From an uncultured delta proteobacterium (GTDB lineage: Bacteria > Desulfobacterota > Binatia > Binatales > Binataceae): 64,000 nucleotides of DNA. A model generated the notes under the pieces. That model saw only the letters and a list, made by a program, of their open reading frames with translations. It did not search any database and was not told the DNA's origin. Shown here one piece after another: positions 46,984 through 55,342 of the stretch. Numbering within the stretch: the first letter of the stretch is position 1; each line of letters opens with the position of its first letter. Position numbers and translations under genes: made by a program. The stretch is from contig CAVOUW010000003.1 of NCBI GenBank assembly GCA_963699705.1, forward strand, positions 2,161,776-2,225,775. The letters are read 5' to 3'.

Positions 46984-46989
46984 TTTTTG

Positions 46990-47177
46990 TGTCATCCCGA
47001 GCGCAGCCGAGGGACCCCGGATCTTTCACGACGCCGGAAGATGCACCCTAACCACGCATCGAGAGATCTCTTTGGCACTCTCCCTCTTTAGGGAGCATCT
47101 CGATCGCTCCATGGTTGAGGGTGCGTCGGCGAGCGTTCAGAAAGATCCGGGGTCCCTCGGCTACGCTCGGGATGACA
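46990..47177. repeat. 188-bp nested palindromic (MITE-like) element
   Basis: 38-bp terminal inverted repeats TGTCATCCCGAGCGCAGCCGAGGGACCCCGGATCTTTC / GAAAGATCCGGGGTCCCTCGGCTACGCTCGGGATGACA (1 mismatch). Inner inverted repeats GCACCCTAACCA…TGGTTGAGGGTGC and a central CTCCCTctttAGGGAG. It lies between the convergent asmA and mutS2 genes. Confidence 0.8.
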
Positions 47178-47246
47178 CAAGAAAAAGATGGCACAAAAGA
47201 AAGATCACACCGGAAAACGGACTACAACGCGACGCCACCCACCGCA

Positions 47247-49650: not shown

Positions 49651-51261
49651 ATGGATCGAATTGAATCGCGGCTGAACACCAACTCCGACGAGTTCCGCCG
49701 CAACCGCGACGCGATGGACGCGCTGATCAAGCGCCTGCGCGACAACATCGAGCGGATTCGCCAGGGCGGTCCTCCGTCCGCGCGCGAACGTCATGTTGAA
49801 CGCGGCAAGCTGCTCGCGCGCGACCGGGTCAAAAAATTGCTCGACCCCGGCAGTCCGTTCCTCGAACTGTCGCCGCTGGCCGCATTCAACATGTACGACG
49901 GCGACTCGCCGTCCGCGAGCATCATCACCGGCATCGGCAGAATCCACGGCCGCGAGGCGGTGATCGTCGCTAACGACGCGACCGTCAAAGGCGGCACGTA
50001 TTTTCCGATGACCGTGAAGAAGCATCTTCGCGCGCAGCAAATCGCCATCGAAAACATGCTGCCGTGCGTTTACCTGGTCGATTCCGGCGGCGCGTTTCTG
50101 CCGATGCAGTCCGAGATTTTTCCCGACGAGAGGCACTTCGGCCGCATCTTCTACAACCAGGCTCAGATGTCGGCGAAAGGCATCGCGCAGGTCGCGGTCG
50201 TGATGGGCAGTTGCACCGCGGGTGGCGCGTACGTGCCCGCGATGTGCGACGAAAATATAATTGTCCGCGAAGAAGGAACCATCTTCCTGGCCGGTCCGCC
50301 GCTGGTGCGCGCCGCGACCGGCGAGGAAGTGACCGCCGAGGAGCTCGGCGGCGGCGACGTACATACCAGACTGTCGGGCGTGAGCGATCATCTCGCCGAC
50401 GACGACGATCACGCGCTCCAGATTGCGCGCGCCATCTTCGAAAACCTCGGCCCTCGCACGCCCGCCGCAATCGAGCAAGACCCGCCCGAAGATCCGCACT
50501 ACGATCCCGCCGAACTCTACGGCATCATCCCAGTCGATACGCGCAAGCCCTACGATGTGCGCGAGGTGATCGCGCGGCTGGTCGATGGCAGCCGGATGCA
50601 CGAGTTCAAGGCCCGCTATGCGACCACTCTCGTCACCGGCTTCGCGCGAATCTACGGCTATCCTGTCGGCATCATCGCGAACAACGGCGTACTGTTCAGC
50701 GAATCGGCGCTCAAGGCCACCCATTTCATCGAGCTGTGCTGCGCGCGGCGCATCCCGCTGCTCTTCCTGCAAAACATCACCGGCTTCATCGTCGGCAAGC
50801 GCTACGAGCAGGGCGGCATCGCAAAGGACGGCGCCAAGATGGTCAACGCGGTCGCCAACGCGCAGGTCCCGAAGTTCACGGTGATCATCGGCGCGTCCAA
50901 CGGCGCAGGAAATTACGGGATGTGCGGGCGCGCGTACTCGCCGCGATTACTTTTCATGTGGCCGAACGCGCGCATCTCGGTGATGGGTGGTGAACAGGCG
51001 GCGAACACGCTGCTCACGGTGAAGCTCGATCAATTGAAGCGCGAAGGCGCGACCATGACCGACGCAGAGCAAAAAGAATTCCTCCGCCCGACGCTCGAGA
51101 AGTACGACCTAGAATCGAGCGTCTATTATTCCAGCGCGCGCCTATGGGACGACGGCGTCCTCGATCCCATCGAAACGCGCGCCGCGCTCGCGCTAGGCAT
51201 CGCGGCGTCGATGAACGCCCCAATCCCCACCCACGCAAATTTCGGCGTCTTCAGAATGTGA
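49651..51261 (+). CDS. acyl-CoA carboxylase carboxyltransferase (beta) subunit, methylcrotonyl-CoA carboxylase-like
   Basis: 536 aa with tandem carboxyltransferase domains. …VDSGGAF…GSCTAGGAY…ends with the MCC-beta-like HANFGVFRM. Confidence 0.85.
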
Positions 51262-51277
51262 GCGTTTTTTTCTTCTG

Positions 51278-51712
51278 TTATCCGCCGGATTGCCAAGATC
51301 GAATCGCTGGGATCGGATGGATCAACATTATGATGTTCAGGATGAGGCCGTCGCGAATCCACAGTGCAAGCGCCACTTCGAGCACGACGACTGTGATGAT
51401 GCTGACTCGGCGCGGCAGCCGGAACGCCAGCCCGAATCCCGCCATGCACGCGAGGATGTCGCACGTCGAGTTCATCACGCTGTCGCCGTAATAGTGAAGC
51501 GAGATCGTCGCTGCGCGATAGCGTTGGATGATCGTGTCGGTGTTCTCGACGATCTCCCACGCGGTTTCCACACCGAGCGCGATTAGCGCACGCACTCGTA
51601 CTGGTAGATTTCGCGCGACCAGCCACGTCAACGCGTAGAACAATACCCCATGCGTGATGTGGCTGAAGGTGTAGGGATCGGTCAGGTATTGCGAGTTGTG
51701 CGAGCTGTTCAC
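51278..51712 (-). CDS. DUF2585/UPF0314-like integral membrane protein
   Basis: 144 aa. GVETAWEIVENTDTIIQRYRAATISLHYYGDSVMNSTCDILAC. GTG start (plus-strand cac at 51710..51712). The family call is tentative. Confidence 0.5.
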   Translation of the reverse strand: MNSSHNSQYLTDPYTFSHITHGVLFYALTWLVARNLPVRVRALIALGVETAWEIVENTDTIIQRYRAATISLHYYGDSVMNSTCDILACMAGFGLAFRLPRRVSIITVVVLEVALALWIRDGLILNIIMLIHPIPAIRSWQSGG

Positions 51713-51845
51713 GTCGCCTGCCCAGACGCCGGGCTGACCGCCGATTCCCTGATTTTGCGGCCATTTATCAGTTCTACGGACGCCGCCAGCGCCATGATCG
51801 CGCCGCCGATCGCCCAGGATGCGGCTGCCGAGATGCGTATCTTCA

Positions 51846-52907
51846 TCAGCCCAGGAAATGCATTGCGATGATTGCGTTGGTCACTACGAATGACGCGGGG
51901 ATCAGCCAGCGCGAGTATTTGCGGATCTCGAGGCCCAGGTCGCGGCGGCGTTCCGAGCGATGGGTTACGTGGACTGTCATCAGTTCCACCACTGCGAGGA
52001 AAACGTAGATGTAGCACTCGAGGAAGAACGCATCGATGTAGGTCAGGTACGGTAGCCGCGGCATCGTCGCGGAAATCGCAAACGCGAACGCGATCACAGT
52101 CAGAATCGTCGTGACTGCGACTTGCACCTGGTTCGACAAGTCGGTGACCTCGATCCAGAACACCGCCCACGACAGGAACACCATCAGCAAGAGCGGCAGA
52201 AATACCTTCCATAAATAAAAGCTCGAGCGCCGCTGAACAGAAATCGCGAACCTGGCCTCCGGCACCGTCCGGCCGCCGTAGGTCGGAGCCACTCCTATTC
52301 GCGGCTCAACCGCTGCGACCCTCCACTGCGCCAGCGACGAGTAGCTCTCGAACTCGCTCGCCGTCCAGGTCGAGTGATCGCCCAGCCTGAACCTGATGTG
52401 AGGTCCATCGACCAGGAACGGGTGAATTATGATAACCAGCGACTGCCGGTCGAACGGGAATCGCCGGAGCGCGAACTTCGATGACAGCCCGACCTTGCAT
52501 CGCTCTGCATAGCGCACGGTGCCGTCGGGCGCGACGCGGATCGAAGTGTCGTAGCGCTCGCGCGGCGTGGCGGCGTTGATCATTTCGAGCTGCGGAATCC
52601 AGATTTGCCCGAATGAGTAGTTGCGCTCCTGATCGTCGGAACCGCTCGGCGTGAAGGCGAGCCGCGGATCGATCCATTTTGCGAACAGGTACGCGTCCAT
52701 CTGGAACTGCTCGTTCACTTCGTCGATCGACGAGATGTTCACGATGTGCAGTCCGATGTCGATGTCGAGCGGCTGTCCGTTGTAGGGCGGAGGTTGCAGG
52801 ATGGGATCGGTAGCGATGCCGGTCGGAGTTTGCGCCGCGCGCGACTCTACCGGCCACAACATTGCCGCGACAATCGCAAAAGCAAGCGCAACGATCCCCT
52901 GACACAT
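51846..52907 (-). CDS. prokaryotic pentameric ligand-gated ion channel (Cys-loop receptor superfamily, GLIC/ELIC-like)
   Basis: A signal peptide, a ~200-aa beta-rich extracellular domain, then the pLGIC M1 signature RRSSFYLWKVFLPLLLMVFLSWAVFWI, M2 QVQVAVTTILTVIAFAFAIS, M3 and a C-terminal M4. Confidence 0.75.
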   Translation of the reverse strand: MCQGIVALAFAIVAAMLWPVESRAAQTPTGIATDPILQPPPYNGQPLDIDIGLHIVNISSIDEVNEQFQMDAYLFAKWIDPRLAFTPSGSDDQERNYSFGQIWIPQLEMINAATPRERYDTSIRVAPDGTVRYAERCKVGLSSKFALRRFPFDRQSLVIIIHPFLVDGPHIRFRLGDHSTWTASEFESYSSLAQWRVAAVEPRIGVAPTYGGRTVPEARFAISVQRRSSFYLWKVFLPLLLMVFLSWAVFWIEVTDLSNQVQVAVTTILTVIAFAFAISATMPRLPYLTYIDAFFLECYIYVFLAVVELMTVHVTHRSERRRDLGLEIRKYSRWLIPASFVVTNAIIAMHFLG

Positions 52908-52913
52908 CCCGAC

Positions 52914-54398
52914 TCAGCCTTCCGGCGCCAGCATTTTGTCTGCGCGCACCAGCCGGTCGAACTCCTCTCCCGACAGCAGTTTCAGCGCGATCGCGGCCTC
53001 GCGCAGCGAGATATTTTCCGCATGCGCCTTCTTTGCGACTTTGGCCGCATTGTCATAGCCGATAGGTTCGCTCAGCGCCGTCACCAGCATCAATGAACTT
53101 TTGACGTTGCGCCGAAGCTGTTCGCGATTCGGCTCGATCCCCTCGACGCAGTACTTGCTGAACGACGCGCACGAATGCGCCAGCAGCATCGTCGAGTGCA
53201 GAAAGTTGTGGATGATGAGCGGTTTGAAAACGTTGAGCTCGAAATTTCCCTGCGATCCGGCCATCGTGATCGCCACATCGTTGCCGATCACCTGGATACA
53301 GACCATCGTCATCGCCTCGCTCTGCGTCGGGTTCACCTTGCCCGGCATGATCGACGAGCCCGGCTCATTCTCCGGCAAAATTAATTCCGCCAGGCCGGTG
53401 CGCGGTCCCGATCCCATCCAGCGAATGTCGTTGGCGATTTTCATCAGCGAGACCGCGAGCGTCTTGAGCGCTCCGGAAGCAGCCACCAGCGCGTCGTGAG
53501 CCGCGAGCGCCGCGAACTTGTTCGGCGCCGATTTGAATGGCAACCCAGTGTACTCCGCGATCTTTTTCGCGACGCGCTCCGCAAATTCGCGATGCGTATT
53601 GAGTCCGGTGCCGACCGCCGTGCCGCCAATAGCCAATTCCAGCAGGTCCGGCATCGCAACCTCGAGCCGTTTCAAGTCGTAGTCGAGCTGCGCGACGTAG
53701 CCCGAAAATTCCTGGCCAAGCGTCAGCGGCACCGCATCCATCAGATGCGTACGCCCGATTTTCACGATGTCGTCGAACGCTTTCGCCTTGCGCGCGAGCG
53801 CGTCGCGCAACTTTCGCACCGACGGAATCAGGTCGTGCGTGACTTCCTCAGCTGCCGCAATATGCATCGCGGTCGGAAACGTGTCGTTGGACGACTGCGA
53901 CATGTTGACGTCGTCGTTGGGATGAATCGGCTTCTTGCTGCCGAGCACGCCGCCCGCCATCTCGATCGCGCGATTCGAGATGACTTCGTTGGCGTTCATG
54001 TTGGTCTGCGTGCCGCTGCCGGTCTGCCAGATGCGCAGCGGAAAATGATCGTCGAGCTTGCCCGCGATCACTTCGTCCGCAGCCGCGCTCATCAGCCGCG
54101 CTTTGTCCGGCGGCAGCTTGCCGAGATCGCGATTAACTTCCGCCGCCGCCTTTTTCAAAATCCCGAATGCGCGCACCACTGACCGCGGCATCCGATCGAA
54201 TCCAATTGCGAAGTGCAGCAGCGACCGTTCCGTCTGCGCGCCCCAGTAGCGATCGTTGGCGACGTTGATAGCGCCCATGCTGTCCGACTCGACACGCTGC
54301 CCGGTCTGCGGCGTCTTGACCGTCACACTCGCCTTCGCGGTCGCGGCGCGCTTGGCGGCACTGGCCTTGCGCATCTTCGCGCTCGATTTTGATGCCAT
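52914..54398 (-). CDS. fumC: class II fumarate hydratase with a Lys/Ala-rich N-terminal extension
   Basis: The [16 protein letters not shown] signature and [25 protein letters not shown]. The first ~35 aa are [34 protein letters not shown]. Confidence 0.85.
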
Positions 54399-54627
54399 CT
54401 TCTATATACCTGCTCGATTTCCGATTCTTCGCGCCGAATATTCTAGCCCGCCTGCCTGCCGATCACAGCGCTTTTTCACCGTCACGATTCCCCCATCGCT
54501 GCCCTTTTCAGAGCCGCTGTGCCGATATAGGTTATGCGGCGTACTCCCGACAATAGGGTGTGCGATTTTAGATTCGTGACAATTTTCGAGATATTATAAG
54601 GACTCGATTCCAAGCGAGGCTGCAACC

Positions 54628-54987
54628 ATGCCCTGGACCATCACCCGTCTTTGCCGCGACTGCGTTGACACCGGATGCGTCAGCGTTTGCCCGGTCGATT
54701 GTATCTACGAATACGTCGGCCCCGACAAGGTAAAATTCCCCAACCAGCTCTACATCGATCCCGACGAATGTATCGATTGCGGCGCCTGCGAGCCCGAATG
54801 CCCATGGCAGGCGATTTTCGAAGAGCCCGCAGTTCCCGAGGTCCTCAAGGACGACATCCCGCTGAATCACGCGCTGCTTGAAATCAAAGACCAGTTTAAG
54901 GTGATGCCGTTCAAAAAGGTCGATCACCCAACCCCAGAGCAAGTAGCCGAAAACAAGAAAAAGTGGGGCGTCGACCCAAACAGCTGA
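54628..54987 (+). CDS. ferredoxin (7Fe FdxA-type, two Cys clusters) with a C-terminal extension
   Basis: [20 protein letters not shown] and [16 protein letters not shown]. Confidence 0.8.
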
Positions 54988-55056
54988 CGCTGCGGTTCGA
55001 ACACAATTCAAACCCAATTGTCCCCGTGCCCTCGGCGCAGTGGTGACTCCAAAAAT

Positions 55057-55099
55057 CTGGTTCCCCTTCCCGCGCGGGAAGGGGTTAGGGGTTAGGTTC
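55057..55099 (-). repeat. family 2 GC-rich hairpin repeat (copy 2, reverse orientation)
   Basis: CTGGTTCCCCTTCCCGCGCGGGAAGGGGTTAGGGGTTAGGTTC is the reverse complement of the copy at 36391. It sits between the convergent ferredoxin and hypothetical genes. Confidence 0.75.
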
Positions 55100-55342
55100 T
55101 CGGGCGTTAGCGATCCTCCCACTCCCTTCAAGGAAGCTGCGCCCAACCTCCGTCAGATCAACAATCAATTCGCGCCCGACAATATGCCGACGCGCAATAA
55201 ATCCCCGCTCGTTCGCATCCTCCCAAACCGTCAACCTCGGGCACGACGTGCGCCAAACCTCCATCACTTCTGAGTAAGGTCGCGGCCGTGCCGCTATCCA
55301 CTCCAGAAAATCCAAAATCAGCGGTGCGAGCGTGTCGCTCAT
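55085..55342 (-). CDS. hypothetical protein (last gene of a prx-dsbA operon)
   Basis: 85 aa, MSDTLAPLILDFLEWIAARPRPYSEVMEVWRTSCPRL…. Its 3' end runs into the family-2 repeat. Confidence 0.4.
   Translation of the reverse strand: MSDTLAPLILDFLEWIAARPRPYSEVMEVWRTSCPRLTVWEDANERGFIARRHIVGRELIVDLTEVGRSFLEGSGRIANAREPNP

What the first reader, a model, noticed from the sequence alone, without database searches (positions are those of the whole stretch)
51278..52907. Bacterial pentameric ligand-gated ion channel next to a DUF2585 membrane protein
The 353-aa ORF has the full pLGIC architecture (signal peptide, extracellular beta-sandwich, RRxxxYxxxxxLPxxLxVxLSWxxFW M1 motif, M2-M4). Prokaryotic Cys-loop homologs are sporadic, and their native ligands are mostly unknown. 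The adjacent small membrane protein (133-nt spacer, same strand) could be functionally linked.
Basis: partly seen in the sequence, partly recalled or inferred. Interest (0 to 1): 0.55.

Follow-up and report, generated by a model that had tools for sequence, protein, structure and literature searches.

The report
GLIC-like channel in fumarase operon

Summary
The 353-aa ORF (51846-52907, minus strand) is a real pentameric ligand-gated ion channel. It has both Pfam domains and a full-length match to GLIC (E about 1e-44). The model shows a signal helix, a beta-sandwich and four TM helices, and GLIC is the best fold match.

The DUF2585 gene is real but was misread. The "133-nt spacer" holds its first 45 codons in another frame. 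Intact relatives are 189 aa, and their ATG overlaps the channel's stop codon (TGATG). Here a 1-nt deletion plus two substitutions destroy the invariant Trp33 codon. A second assembly carries the same lesion.

Across 56 informative related loci, DUF2585 follows the channel in 28 and is absent in 28. Among 80 species-level DUF2585 loci, only 3 (all Binataceae) have a channel nearby. The link is therefore clade-specific, co-translated and dispensable.

The constant partner is fumC, 5-8 nt upstream in 28 of 29 measured junctions. It is kept down to about 54% channel identity and lost at 46-48%. GLIC is potentiated by fumarate, but its key residue Arg77 is an invariant Glu here, so the native ligand remains unknown.

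Verdict: a new member of a known kind, of moderate interest.

The parts
52914..54398 (-). fumC, class II fumarate hydratase; first gene of the operon, divergent from a ferredoxin gene (54628-54987, plus strand)
   Evidence: TIGR00979 fumC_II scores 780.5 bits against a cut-off of 664.75. Lyase_1 and FumaraseC_C domains are present. The gene lies upstream of the channel in 43 of 45 informative loci.
52908..52913 (-). 6-nt gap between the fumC stop codon and the channel's ATG; no terminator or promoter fits here
   Evidence: Sequence. The gap is 5-8 nt in 28 of 29 measured loci. In L148 and L150 the called genes overlap by 4 nt. No minus-strand terminator-like site was found.
51846..52907 (-). 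pLGIC gene, 353 codons plus stop. Signal peptide about aa 1-25 (52833-52907), extracellular beta-sandwich about aa 26-229 (52221-52832), M1-M4 aa 230-353 (51849-52220)
   Evidence: dN/dS is 0.13-0.21 against relatives of the main clade (0.36 against the 54% relative L073), so the gene is under purifying selection.
51709..51846 (-). N-terminal 45-codon fragment of DUF2585 (TM helix plus GRKI). Its ATG overlaps the channel's TGA by 1 nt, and it ends at a TGA created by the frameshift
   Evidence: Three-frame translation. tblastn matches P0122 residues 1-32 at 51846-51751 with 87.5% identity. The gene caller also reports a 45-aa ORF in the second assembly L002.
51745..51750 (-). Frameshift lesion: one base deleted plus two substitutions, destroying the invariant Trp33 codon of DUF2585
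   Evidence: DNA alignment of the window and L002 against four intact relatives. W33 is invariant in alignment A1.
51278..51712 (-). C-terminal 144-codon ORF of DUF2585 (GTG start overlapping the upstream TGA as GTGA). It keeps the predicted catalytic core but carries substitutions at two nearly invariant positions, L144R and M128T
   Evidence: PF10755 at 1.4e-58, profile positions 23-164 only. 95% identity to the intact P0122.
49651..51261 (+). Convergent neighbour: carboxyltransferase subunit of an acyl-CoA carboxylase. It marks the downstream edge of the operon, 16 nt from the DUF2585 stop
   Evidence: Carboxyl_trans at 5.3e-155. It lies directly after the channel in loci that lack DUF2585.

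Best explanation
The locus is a three-gene operon of an uncultured Binataceae bacterium: fumC, then a pLGIC, then DUF2585.

[quoted passage not shown] It belongs to the Pro-loop, non-Cys-loop bacterial type, and GLIC is the closest solved relative. By homology (inferred) five copies form a channel. Its periplasmic beta-sandwich senses a small solute and/or pH, and it opens a pore lined by M2 (6' Thr, 9' Leu, 13' Ala, 16' Phe).

The gating scaffold of GLIC is kept: the Pro-loop FPFD, the pre-M1 Arg, the Asp/Glu partners, and the Glu35/Thr158 pair. GLIC's transmembrane titratable residues (H235, E243, E222) and half of its carboxylate site (R77, R133) are replaced. My best guess, held at low confidence, is therefore a small-molecule-gated and possibly pH-dependent channel rather than a GLIC-type pure proton sensor. 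Ion selectivity cannot be assigned.

Expression is tied to fumC by a 6-nt junction. This junction is the conserved feature of the clade.

The third gene belongs to the cpCone-DUF2585 family of the Lipocone superfamily, a predicted membrane lipid head-group-exchanging enzyme. It is a facultative, translationally coupled passenger that has been lost repeatedly. In this genome it is inactivated, or at least split, by a frameshift.
For: Shown:
- Domain and full-length GLIC homology, and fold and topology.
- Residues kept relative to GLIC: P120, D122, R192, Y197, E35, T158, R85, Y102, E104, R105 and H277. Residues replaced: R77E, R133F, I131H, H235V, E243S and E222S. Nearly all of these are invariant in 119 orthologues.
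- Purifying selection on the channel.
- fumC junction of 5-8 nt in 28 of 29 loci, and DUF2585 overlap of 1 nt in 24 of 26.
- Synteny Fer4(-)/fumC-pLGIC is kept at 54-65% channel identity.
- DUF2585 is present in 28 and absent in 28 loci, with a patchy pattern on the channel tree.
- The frameshift is shared by two assemblies.
- DUF2585 is classed as cpCone-DUF2585 in the Lipocone paper (10.1101/2025.01.14.632903). The clade motifs D-x5-H (D57/H63) and E-x2-E (E98/E101), plus D122, are visible in alignment A1.

Inferred: pentamer formation, ion conduction, the nature of the ligand, and co-transcription.
Against: - No functional data exist for any member of this clade.
- The model is a monomer of only moderate confidence (pLDDT 68.8). 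Pocket assignments rest on sequence alignment, which is weak in loops C and F.
- The fumC linkage could be inherited synteny without functional meaning. It disappears in the 46-48%-identity relatives.
- The split DUF2585 might still be expressed as two polypeptides, because the GTGA stop/start overlap allows re-initiation. pN/pS of the 144-codon part is about 0.2, which is not clearly relaxed.
Confidence: 0.85

Rival explanations
1. The channel is a receptor for C4-dicarboxylates (fumarate, malate) or a close derivative such as aspartate. The fumC linkage reflects this, as ELIC's glutamate-decarboxylase neighbour reflects its agonist GABA. Ligand binding in the periplasmic domain would couple organic-acid availability to membrane potential.
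For: - fumC is the invariant, tightly joined upstream gene.
- GLIC is potentiated by fumarate > succinate > malonate > glutarate (10.1101/2023.03.03.530963). It binds fumarate in the inter-subunit pocket (PMC7336382).
- The vestibular carboxylate site (R85, Y102, E104) and R105 are invariant here.
- There is an ELIC precedent for a ligand-related enzyme in the operon (PMC3119659).
Against: - R77, R133 and E181 are each required for the fumarate effect in GLIC. Here they are E108 and F164 (both invariant) and Gly/Leu.
- N152 falls in a gap.
- FumC is cytoplasmic, while the binding domain faces the periplasm.
- The linkage is confined to one family and is lost in the 46-48% relatives.
- The apparent second link, to malic enzyme (L020, L152), is a truncated gene fragment beside an IS110-like transposase.
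Confidence: 0.2
2. The channel and DUF2585 form a functional pair. The Lipocone enzyme would remodel the head groups of the lipids around the channel and so set its gating.
For: - A one-base stop/start overlap in 24 of 26 junctions.
- The channel-linked DUF2585 copies of the main clade form one group on the tree.
- The predicted catalytic residues are conserved.
- From general knowledge: GLIC, ELIC and nicotinic receptors are sensitive to anionic lipids.
Against: - DUF2585 is lost in half of the orthologous loci and in all five 55-65% relatives examined.
- It is frameshifted here, while the channel remains under purifying selection.
- 77 of 80 DUF2585 loci in other species have no pLGIC within 6 kb.
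- Other Binataceae keep DUF2585 next to unrelated genes.
- The Lipocone paper reports different partners: GNAT, GlcE/F and HslVU.
Confidence: 0.12
3. The channel is a GLIC-type proton-gated cation channel, useful in the acidic soils and peats where these bacteria live, with no organic ligand.
For: - GLIC is the closest solved relative.
- The E35/T158 pair is conserved in 116 and 115 of 119 orthologues respectively.
- Many source contigs carry peat or forest-soil style accessions. The habitat itself is my inference and was not checked.
Against: - H235, E243 and E222 are replaced by Val, Ser and Ser.
- E35 is Gly in the 54% relative L073.
- The -1'/-2' acidic ring expected of cation-selective channels is absent.
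- Loop C is 10 residues longer, with invariant Tyr210 and Glu217. The pocket residues Y73, E108, R136, H162 and F164 are invariant, which suggests a ligand site under constraint.
Confidence: 0.25

Closest known systems
GLIC (Gloeobacter violaceus Glr4197, proton-gated pLGIC; PDB 3EAM and many others)
   Same: Full-length alignment with about 30% identity (E about 1e-44; tblastn 30%). Best Foldseek match at E 2.6e-25. Both lack a Cys-loop. Shared features: the Pro-loop, the pre-M1 Arg, the E35/T158 pair, the vestibular R85/Y102/E104 triad, R105, and 13' Ala / 14' Phe.
   Different: R77E, R133F, I131H, H235V, E243S and E222S. 9' is Leu rather than Ile, and 16' is Phe. The M1-M2 loop is 2 residues longer, with invariant Asp at -4' and Asn/Gln at -1'/0'. 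Loop C is 10 residues longer. It is encoded in a fumC operon.
ELIC (Dickeya/Erwinia pLGIC gated by primary amines including GABA)
   Same: A bacterial pLGIC encoded in an operon with a metabolic enzyme that may make or process its ligand (PMC3119659). There is an aromatic residue at the loop-B position (F164). The ELIC numbering behind this comparison is recalled from memory and was not tested.
   Different: The neighbouring enzyme is a fumarase, not an amino-acid decarboxylase. All 60 listed PDB sequence matches are GLIC (variants, plus one GLIC-GlyR chimera), so ELIC is the more distant relative. No direct alignment with ELIC was made.
cpCone-DUF2585 family of the Lipocone superfamily (relatives include the eukaryotic phosphatidylserine synthases PTDSS1/2)
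   Same: PF10755 match. The clade signature is present: Asp six residues before the H2 His, Glu-x2-Glu in H3, and a conserved Asp.
   Different: The gene context (after a pLGIC) is not among the associations reported for the family, which are GNAT, GlcE/F and HslVU. The copy in this window is split by a frameshift.

Membership tests
Pentameric ligand-gated ion channel superfamily (Pro-loop receptors; PF02931 + PF02932) | N-terminal extracellular beta-sandwich (ligand-binding domain) | tested here: met
   PF02931 scores 87.2 bits against a cut-off of 26. The model has 10 strands between residues 47 and 226.
Pentameric ligand-gated ion channel superfamily (Pro-loop receptors; PF02931 + PF02932) | Four transmembrane helices M1-M4, with M2 lining the pore | tested here: met
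   PF02932 scores 55 bits against a cut-off of 28.1. Helices at 230-251, 257-281, 288-317 and 319-352. M1-M4 align with GLIC without gaps in M2-M3.
Pentameric ligand-gated ion channel superfamily (Pro-loop receptors; PF02931 + PF02932) | Conserved Pro-loop (FPFD) and the pre-M1 Arg / Asp gating network | tested here: met
   F150-P151-F152-D153, R226, E63 and Y231 are invariant in 119 orthologues.
Pentameric ligand-gated ion channel superfamily (Pro-loop receptors; PF02931 + PF02932) | Homopentameric assembly and ion conduction | not testable with these tools
   Only a monomer model could be made. No electrophysiology is available.
Animal Cys-loop receptors | Disulphide-bonded Cys pair 13 residues apart flanking the Pro-loop | tested here: not met
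   The mature protein has only Cys138 and Cys298, with no partner Cys in the beta6-beta7 loop. This matches the bacterial type.
GLIC-type proton-gated channel | Titratable residues implicated in GLIC gating (E35 with T158; H235, E243, E222) | tested here: inconclusive
   E35 and T158 are conserved. H235V, E243S and E222S are invariant replacements. Which residues are essential for GLIC gating is taken from my own knowledge of the GLIC literature.
GLIC-type dicarboxylate-modulated site | Inter-subunit pocket R77, R105, E181 (with R133 at the pocket entrance), plus vestibular Y102 and E104; each is required for the fumarate effect | tested here: not met
   R105, Y102, E104 and R85 are kept. R77 is Glu, R133 is Phe, and E181 is Gly/Leu. 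Alignment in loop C is uncertain.
NCBIfam LGIC_1 (NF033918) / TIGR00860 LIC subfamilies | Score above the curated cut-off | tested here: not met
   175.7 bits against 500, and 166.2 bits against 280.2.
DUF2585 (PF10755; cpCone-DUF2585 Lipocone) | Full-length match to the family profile | tested here: not met
   The window ORF covers profile positions 23-164 only. The intact relative P0122 covers 3-164. The cause is the frameshift at about 51745-51750.
DUF2585 (PF10755; cpCone-DUF2585 Lipocone) | cpCone signature residues (Asp-x5-His in H2, Glu-x2-Glu in H3, Asp in H4) | tested here: met
   LTDPYTFSH, WEIVEN and YYGDS are present in the 144-aa ORF. The signature is as described in the Lipocone paper.
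DUF2585 (PF10755; cpCone-DUF2585 Lipocone) | Lipocone fold | tested here: inconclusive
   The AlphaFold2 model from 16 sequences reached only pLDDT 52, so no fold search was attempted.

The most novel reading that the evidence does not exclude
The conserved, translationally coupled fumC-pLGIC operon marks a clade of bacterial pLGICs whose physiological agonist or modulator is a C4-dicarboxylate or a close derivative. This would tie TCA-cycle or organic-acid status to membrane potential. The optional cpCone/DUF2585 enzyme would tune the channel's surrounding lipids. If so, this would be the first bacterial pLGIC whose native ligand is predicted from genomic context and matches in-vitro GLIC pharmacology.
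Probability: 0.12. Interest if true: 0.75.

Novelty: new member of a known kind. Interest (0 to 1): 0.4.

Why it matters
The physiological role and native ligands of bacterial pLGICs remain unknown, even though GLIC and ELIC are the main structural models for human neurotransmitter receptors. A whole clade of GLIC relatives joined to the fumarase gene gives a concrete, cheap experiment: express one and test fumarate, malate, aspartate and pH. The published finding that fumarate is the best known positive modulator of GLIC makes that experiment worth doing.

The result on DUF2585 is mostly corrective. It shows that a tempting 'channel plus unknown membrane protein' pair is a lineage-specific, dispensable arrangement. 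It also shows that DUF2585 already has a proposed identity, as a Lipocone lipid head-group enzyme.

Tried and rejected
1. Structure prediction of DUF2585 from a 16-sequence alignment gave pLDDT 52. That is too poor for a fold search, so the fold assignment rests on the literature and on motifs.
2. A profile search meant to reach distant pLGIC clades was dominated by the same Binataceae clade. Only two contexts at 46-48% identity could be examined.
3. A malic-enzyme gene upstream of the channel in L020 and L152 looked like a second link to C4-dicarboxylate metabolism. It turned out to be a fragment of about 100 aa, beside an IS110-like transposase start. I rejected it as functional evidence.
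4. Programmed frameshifting in DUF2585 was rejected. All relatives read through in one frame, and the lesion includes two substitutions.
5. A simple homopolymer sequencing error was judged unlikely for the same reason, and because a second assembly shares the lesion. It is not excluded, because that assembly also shows frameshifts in fumC.
6. The promoter/terminator scan and the Rfam search of 51000-55200 found nothing informative.
7. No second DUF2585 or pLGIC copy exists in the 64-kb window.
Full report
**1. What is in the sequence**

On the minus strand, three reading frames follow one another between a divergent ferredoxin gene and a convergent carboxyltransferase gene:

| Coordinates (minus strand) | Length | Identity | Evidence |
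|---|---|---|---|
| 52914-54398 | 494 aa | Class II fumarate hydratase (fumC) | TIGR00979, 780 bits against a cut-off of 665 |
| 51846-52907 | 353 aa | pLGIC | Neur_chan_LBD 1.4e-24 and Neur_chan_memb 1.8e-14 |
| 51278-51712 | 144 aa | DUF2585 | PF10755, 1.4e-58 |

The DUF2585 match covers only positions 23-164 of the 164-position profile.

**2. The channel**

- phmmer against all PDB sequences gives 336 matches. All 60 listed are GLIC sequences (variants, plus one GLIC-GlyR chimera), aligned from residue 31-38 to residue 353 at E about 1e-44.
- An AlphaFold2 model built from 35 orthologues has moderate confidence (pLDDT 68.8). It shows a signal helix (3-16), ten strands (47-226) and four helices (230-251, 257-281, 288-317, 319-352).
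- Foldseek against the PDB puts GLIC first, at E 2.6e-25 and 28-29% identity.
- The mature protein has only two cysteines, and neither flanks the beta6-beta7 loop. It is the bacterial Pro-loop type, not a Cys-loop receptor.
- The curated NCBIfam subfamily models are matched only below their cut-offs.

**3. Residue mapping onto GLIC**

The mapping uses a MAFFT alignment of GLIC, 119 orthologues and one 54% relative. It agrees with the HMMER alignment.

| Role in GLIC | GLIC residue | Here |
|---|---|---|
| Gating scaffold (kept) | P120 | P151 |
| | D122 | D153 |
| | R192 | R226 |
| | Y197 | Y231 |
| | D32 | E63 |
| | K248 | R284 |
| | H277 | H313 |
| | E35 | E66 (116 of 119 orthologues) |
| | T158 | T182 |
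| Vestibular carboxylate site (kept) | R85 | R116 |
| | Y102 | Y133 |
| | E104 | E135 |
| Loop E (kept) | R105 | R136 |
| Replaced, invariantly | R77 | E108 |
| | R133 | F164 |
| | I131 | H162 |
| | H235 | V271 |
| | E243 | S279 |
| Replaced, nearly invariantly | E222 | S258 (111 of 119 orthologues) |

- The pore reads -4' Asp, -2' Ser, -1' Asn, 0' Gln, 2' Gln, 6' Thr, 9' Leu, 13' Ala and 16' Phe. The M1-M2 loop is two residues longer than in GLIC.
- From general knowledge of the family, the pore has neither the -1'/-2' Glu of cation channels nor the Pro-Ala-Arg of anion channels. I leave selectivity open.
- Loop C is ten residues longer than in GLIC and carries invariant Y210 and E217.
- The pocket positions are invariant while neighbouring loop positions vary. 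dN/dS is 0.13-0.21 against relatives of the main clade and 0.36 against the 54% relative L073. Both point to a working receptor with a constrained binding site.

**4. The DUF2585 gene is split**

- The closest homologues are 189 aa and begin MKIRIS...INGRKIWGISGxPGVWAGDVNSSHNSQ.
- In the window, the first 32 of these residues are encoded at 51846-51751, in a frame that starts at an ATG overlapping the channel's TGA (TGATG). The rest is in the frame of the 144-aa ORF.
- The DNA alignment shows ATC-AGGGAATCGG in the window and in a second assembly (L002), against ATCTGGGGCATCAG in four intact relatives. That is one base lost and two changed, removing the codon of Trp33, which is invariant in the family alignment.
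- L002 differs from the window at other positions and in its flanks. The lesion therefore predates their split, or is at least reproducible.
- The window copy also carries L144R and M128T, both at nearly invariant positions.
- pN/pS of the remaining ORF is about 0.2. The event is therefore recent, or the fragment is still used. The GTGA stop/start overlap would allow re-initiation.
- The '133-nt spacer' of the finding is thus coding sequence of a broken gene.

**5. How general the channel-DUF2585 pairing is**

Starting from the channel, I collected 58 metagenomic loci. I added three loci from exact-protein look-ups and three channel-bearing loci from the genome scan. One of these, L002, is a second assembly of the window's own strain and was left out of the counts.

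- DUF2585 follows the channel in 28 of the informative loci and is absent in 28. Eight loci were too short to tell.
- Where present, its ATG overlaps the channel's stop by one base in 24 of 26 junctions.
- On a neighbour-joining tree of the channel, presence is patchy. It is present in the 54% outgroup L073. The window's sister, L001, lacks it.
- In L001 the slot is filled by a 241-nt spacer with inverted repeats of about 40 nt.
- The five relatives at 55-65% identity have no DUF2585.

Starting from DUF2585, I scanned one genome per species and kept 80 loci from Binataceae, Acidobacteriota, Alphaproteobacteria, Opitutales and other groups.

- Only three, all Binataceae, have a pLGIC within 6 kb.
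- Other Binataceae carry DUF2585 beside unrelated genes.
- On a DUF2585 tree, the channel-linked copies of the main clade form one group, nested among Binataceae copies from other contexts.

The reading that fits is a single capture of DUF2585 behind the channel, tight co-translation while it is there, and repeated loss. The window shows one such loss in progress.

**6. What DUF2585 is**

- The only paper in the library that names it places it in the cpCone clade of the Lipocone superfamily, together with the eukaryotic phosphatidylserine synthases PTDSS1/2. That paper proposes lipid head-group exchange as the function. It reports operon links to a GNAT acetyltransferase, GlcE/F and HslVU, and none to ion channels (10.1101/2025.01.14.632903).
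- The clade signature described there is visible in the Binataceae proteins and in the window's 144-aa ORF: Asp six residues before the helix-2 His, and Glu-x2-Glu in helix 3.
- My own structure prediction was too poor to test the fold (pLDDT 52).

**7. The constant partner is fumC**

- fumC lies immediately upstream in 43 of 45 informative loci.
- The gap is 5-8 nt in 28 of 29 measured cases. In L148 and L150 the called genes overlap by 4 nt.
- The Fer4(-)/fumC-pLGIC arrangement persists down to 54-55% channel identity, even where the downstream genes differ, as in L144.
- At 46-48% identity the channel stands alone beside an Lhr-type helicase gene.
- One of the two exceptions is a truncated channel behind an SDR gene (L044).
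- The other is a variant found on two independent contigs (L020, L152). There a malic-enzyme C-terminal fragment sits 7 nt upstream of the channel, beside the start of an IS110-like transposase. It is a rearranged locus, not a second functional link.
- No terminator-like or convincing promoter-like site, and no Rfam match, lies between the genes.

**8. Does fumC point to the ligand?**

Two published facts make the idea attractive.

- Fumarate is the most potent known positive modulator of GLIC (fumarate > succinate > malonate > glutarate). The effect needs R77, R105, E181, R133, Y102 and E104 (10.1101/2023.03.03.530963). Fumarate is seen in the inter-subunit pocket in crystals (PMC7336382).
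- ELIC lies in an operon with a putative glutamate decarboxylase, and GABA is one of its agonists (PMC3119659).

Against the idea, three of the six required GLIC residues are replaced here, including a charge reversal at R77. FumC is cytoplasmic while the binding domain is periplasmic. The linkage is confined to one family. I give this reading about 0.2.

The pocket as aligned holds an acidic residue and aromatics on one face (E108, H162, F164, Y210), with Arg136 and Tyr73 on the other. It would suit a zwitterion such as an amino acid as well as a dicarboxylate. This is inference from alignment only.

**9. Comparison with what is known, and novelty**

- The protein is a new member of a known superfamily, and GLIC is its nearest characterised relative.
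- The family is large in metagenomes: 12,140 clusters at 50% identity match at E <= 1e-3, and 491 at E <= 1e-30.
- About 140 such clusters score at or above roughly 153 bits, the score GLIC reached in a separate PDB search.
- I found no mention of operon or genomic context for bacterial pLGICs in the 2016 inventory paper (PMC4795631). A library search turned up only the ELIC case.
- The fumC operon therefore appears to be undescribed, but it is a clue rather than a finding.

**10. Verdict**

The thing is an ordinary-looking but intact GLIC-family channel in a conserved fumarase operon, with a decaying Lipocone gene attached. Interest is 0.4. The most novel reading still open, a dicarboxylate-linked native ligand, has a probability of about 0.12.

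Noticed in passing
window 46984-47183: A MITE-like element of about 200 nt with 66-nt terminal inverted repeats (85% complementary; tgtgtcatcccgagcgcagccgagggaccccggatctttc...). It lies between the AsmA-like gene and mutS2. An element with similar ends (GTGTCAT...GCGCAGC...CCCGGATCTTTC) and a shared inner motif (CCCTAACCACG) fills the position of DUF2585 in L001 (7063-7304). The family relationship is judged by eye.
   Followed up: partly
L020 1-375 and L152 587-961: In one channel variant (77% identity, 365 aa), fumC is replaced by a C-terminal fragment of a malic enzyme (Malic_M, 5.6e-18) ending 7 nt before the channel's ATG. L152 also carries the N-terminus of an IS110-like transposase (MEITTIGIDLAKSVF) at its left end. 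In L020 the channel is followed by a stem-loop plus T-run and no DUF2585. The locus has been rearranged or moved.
   Followed up: partly
window 51846-52907 compared with 52914-54398 and 49651-51261: Against relatives of the main clade, the channel gene has 1.3-2.9 times the synonymous divergence of its two flanking genes in every pair compared. For the window against L003, dS is 0.74 against 0.34 and 0.26. This could reflect exchange of channel alleles by recombination, or weaker codon bias.
   Followed up: no
L062 4930-5998: In this species-representative MAG the channel matches only residues 1-261 in one frame, while the DUF2585 downstream is intact. This is the reverse of the window's situation: either a disrupted channel or an assembly error.
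   Followed up: no
window 54300-54398: The fumC ORF has a Lys/Ala-rich N-terminal extension of about 30 residues ([28 protein letters not shown]...) ahead of the region matched by the fumarase models, which begin at residue 35. Gene callers give 469-486 aa in most relatives (521 aa in L153), so the true start is uncertain.
   Followed up: no
L002 (second assembly of the same strain): In L002 fumC is called as two ORFs (344 + 167 aa), and the carboxyltransferase is truncated to 234 aa with an unannotated 280-aa ORF beside it. That assembly therefore contains either further frameshift errors or real rearrangements, which limits its weight as independent support for the DUF2585 frameshift.
   Followed up: partly
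window 55085-55342: An 85-aa ORF on the minus strand between the ferredoxin and DsbA-like genes has no Pfam match. It is called as a gene in L002 but not in L001 or L003.
   Followed up: no
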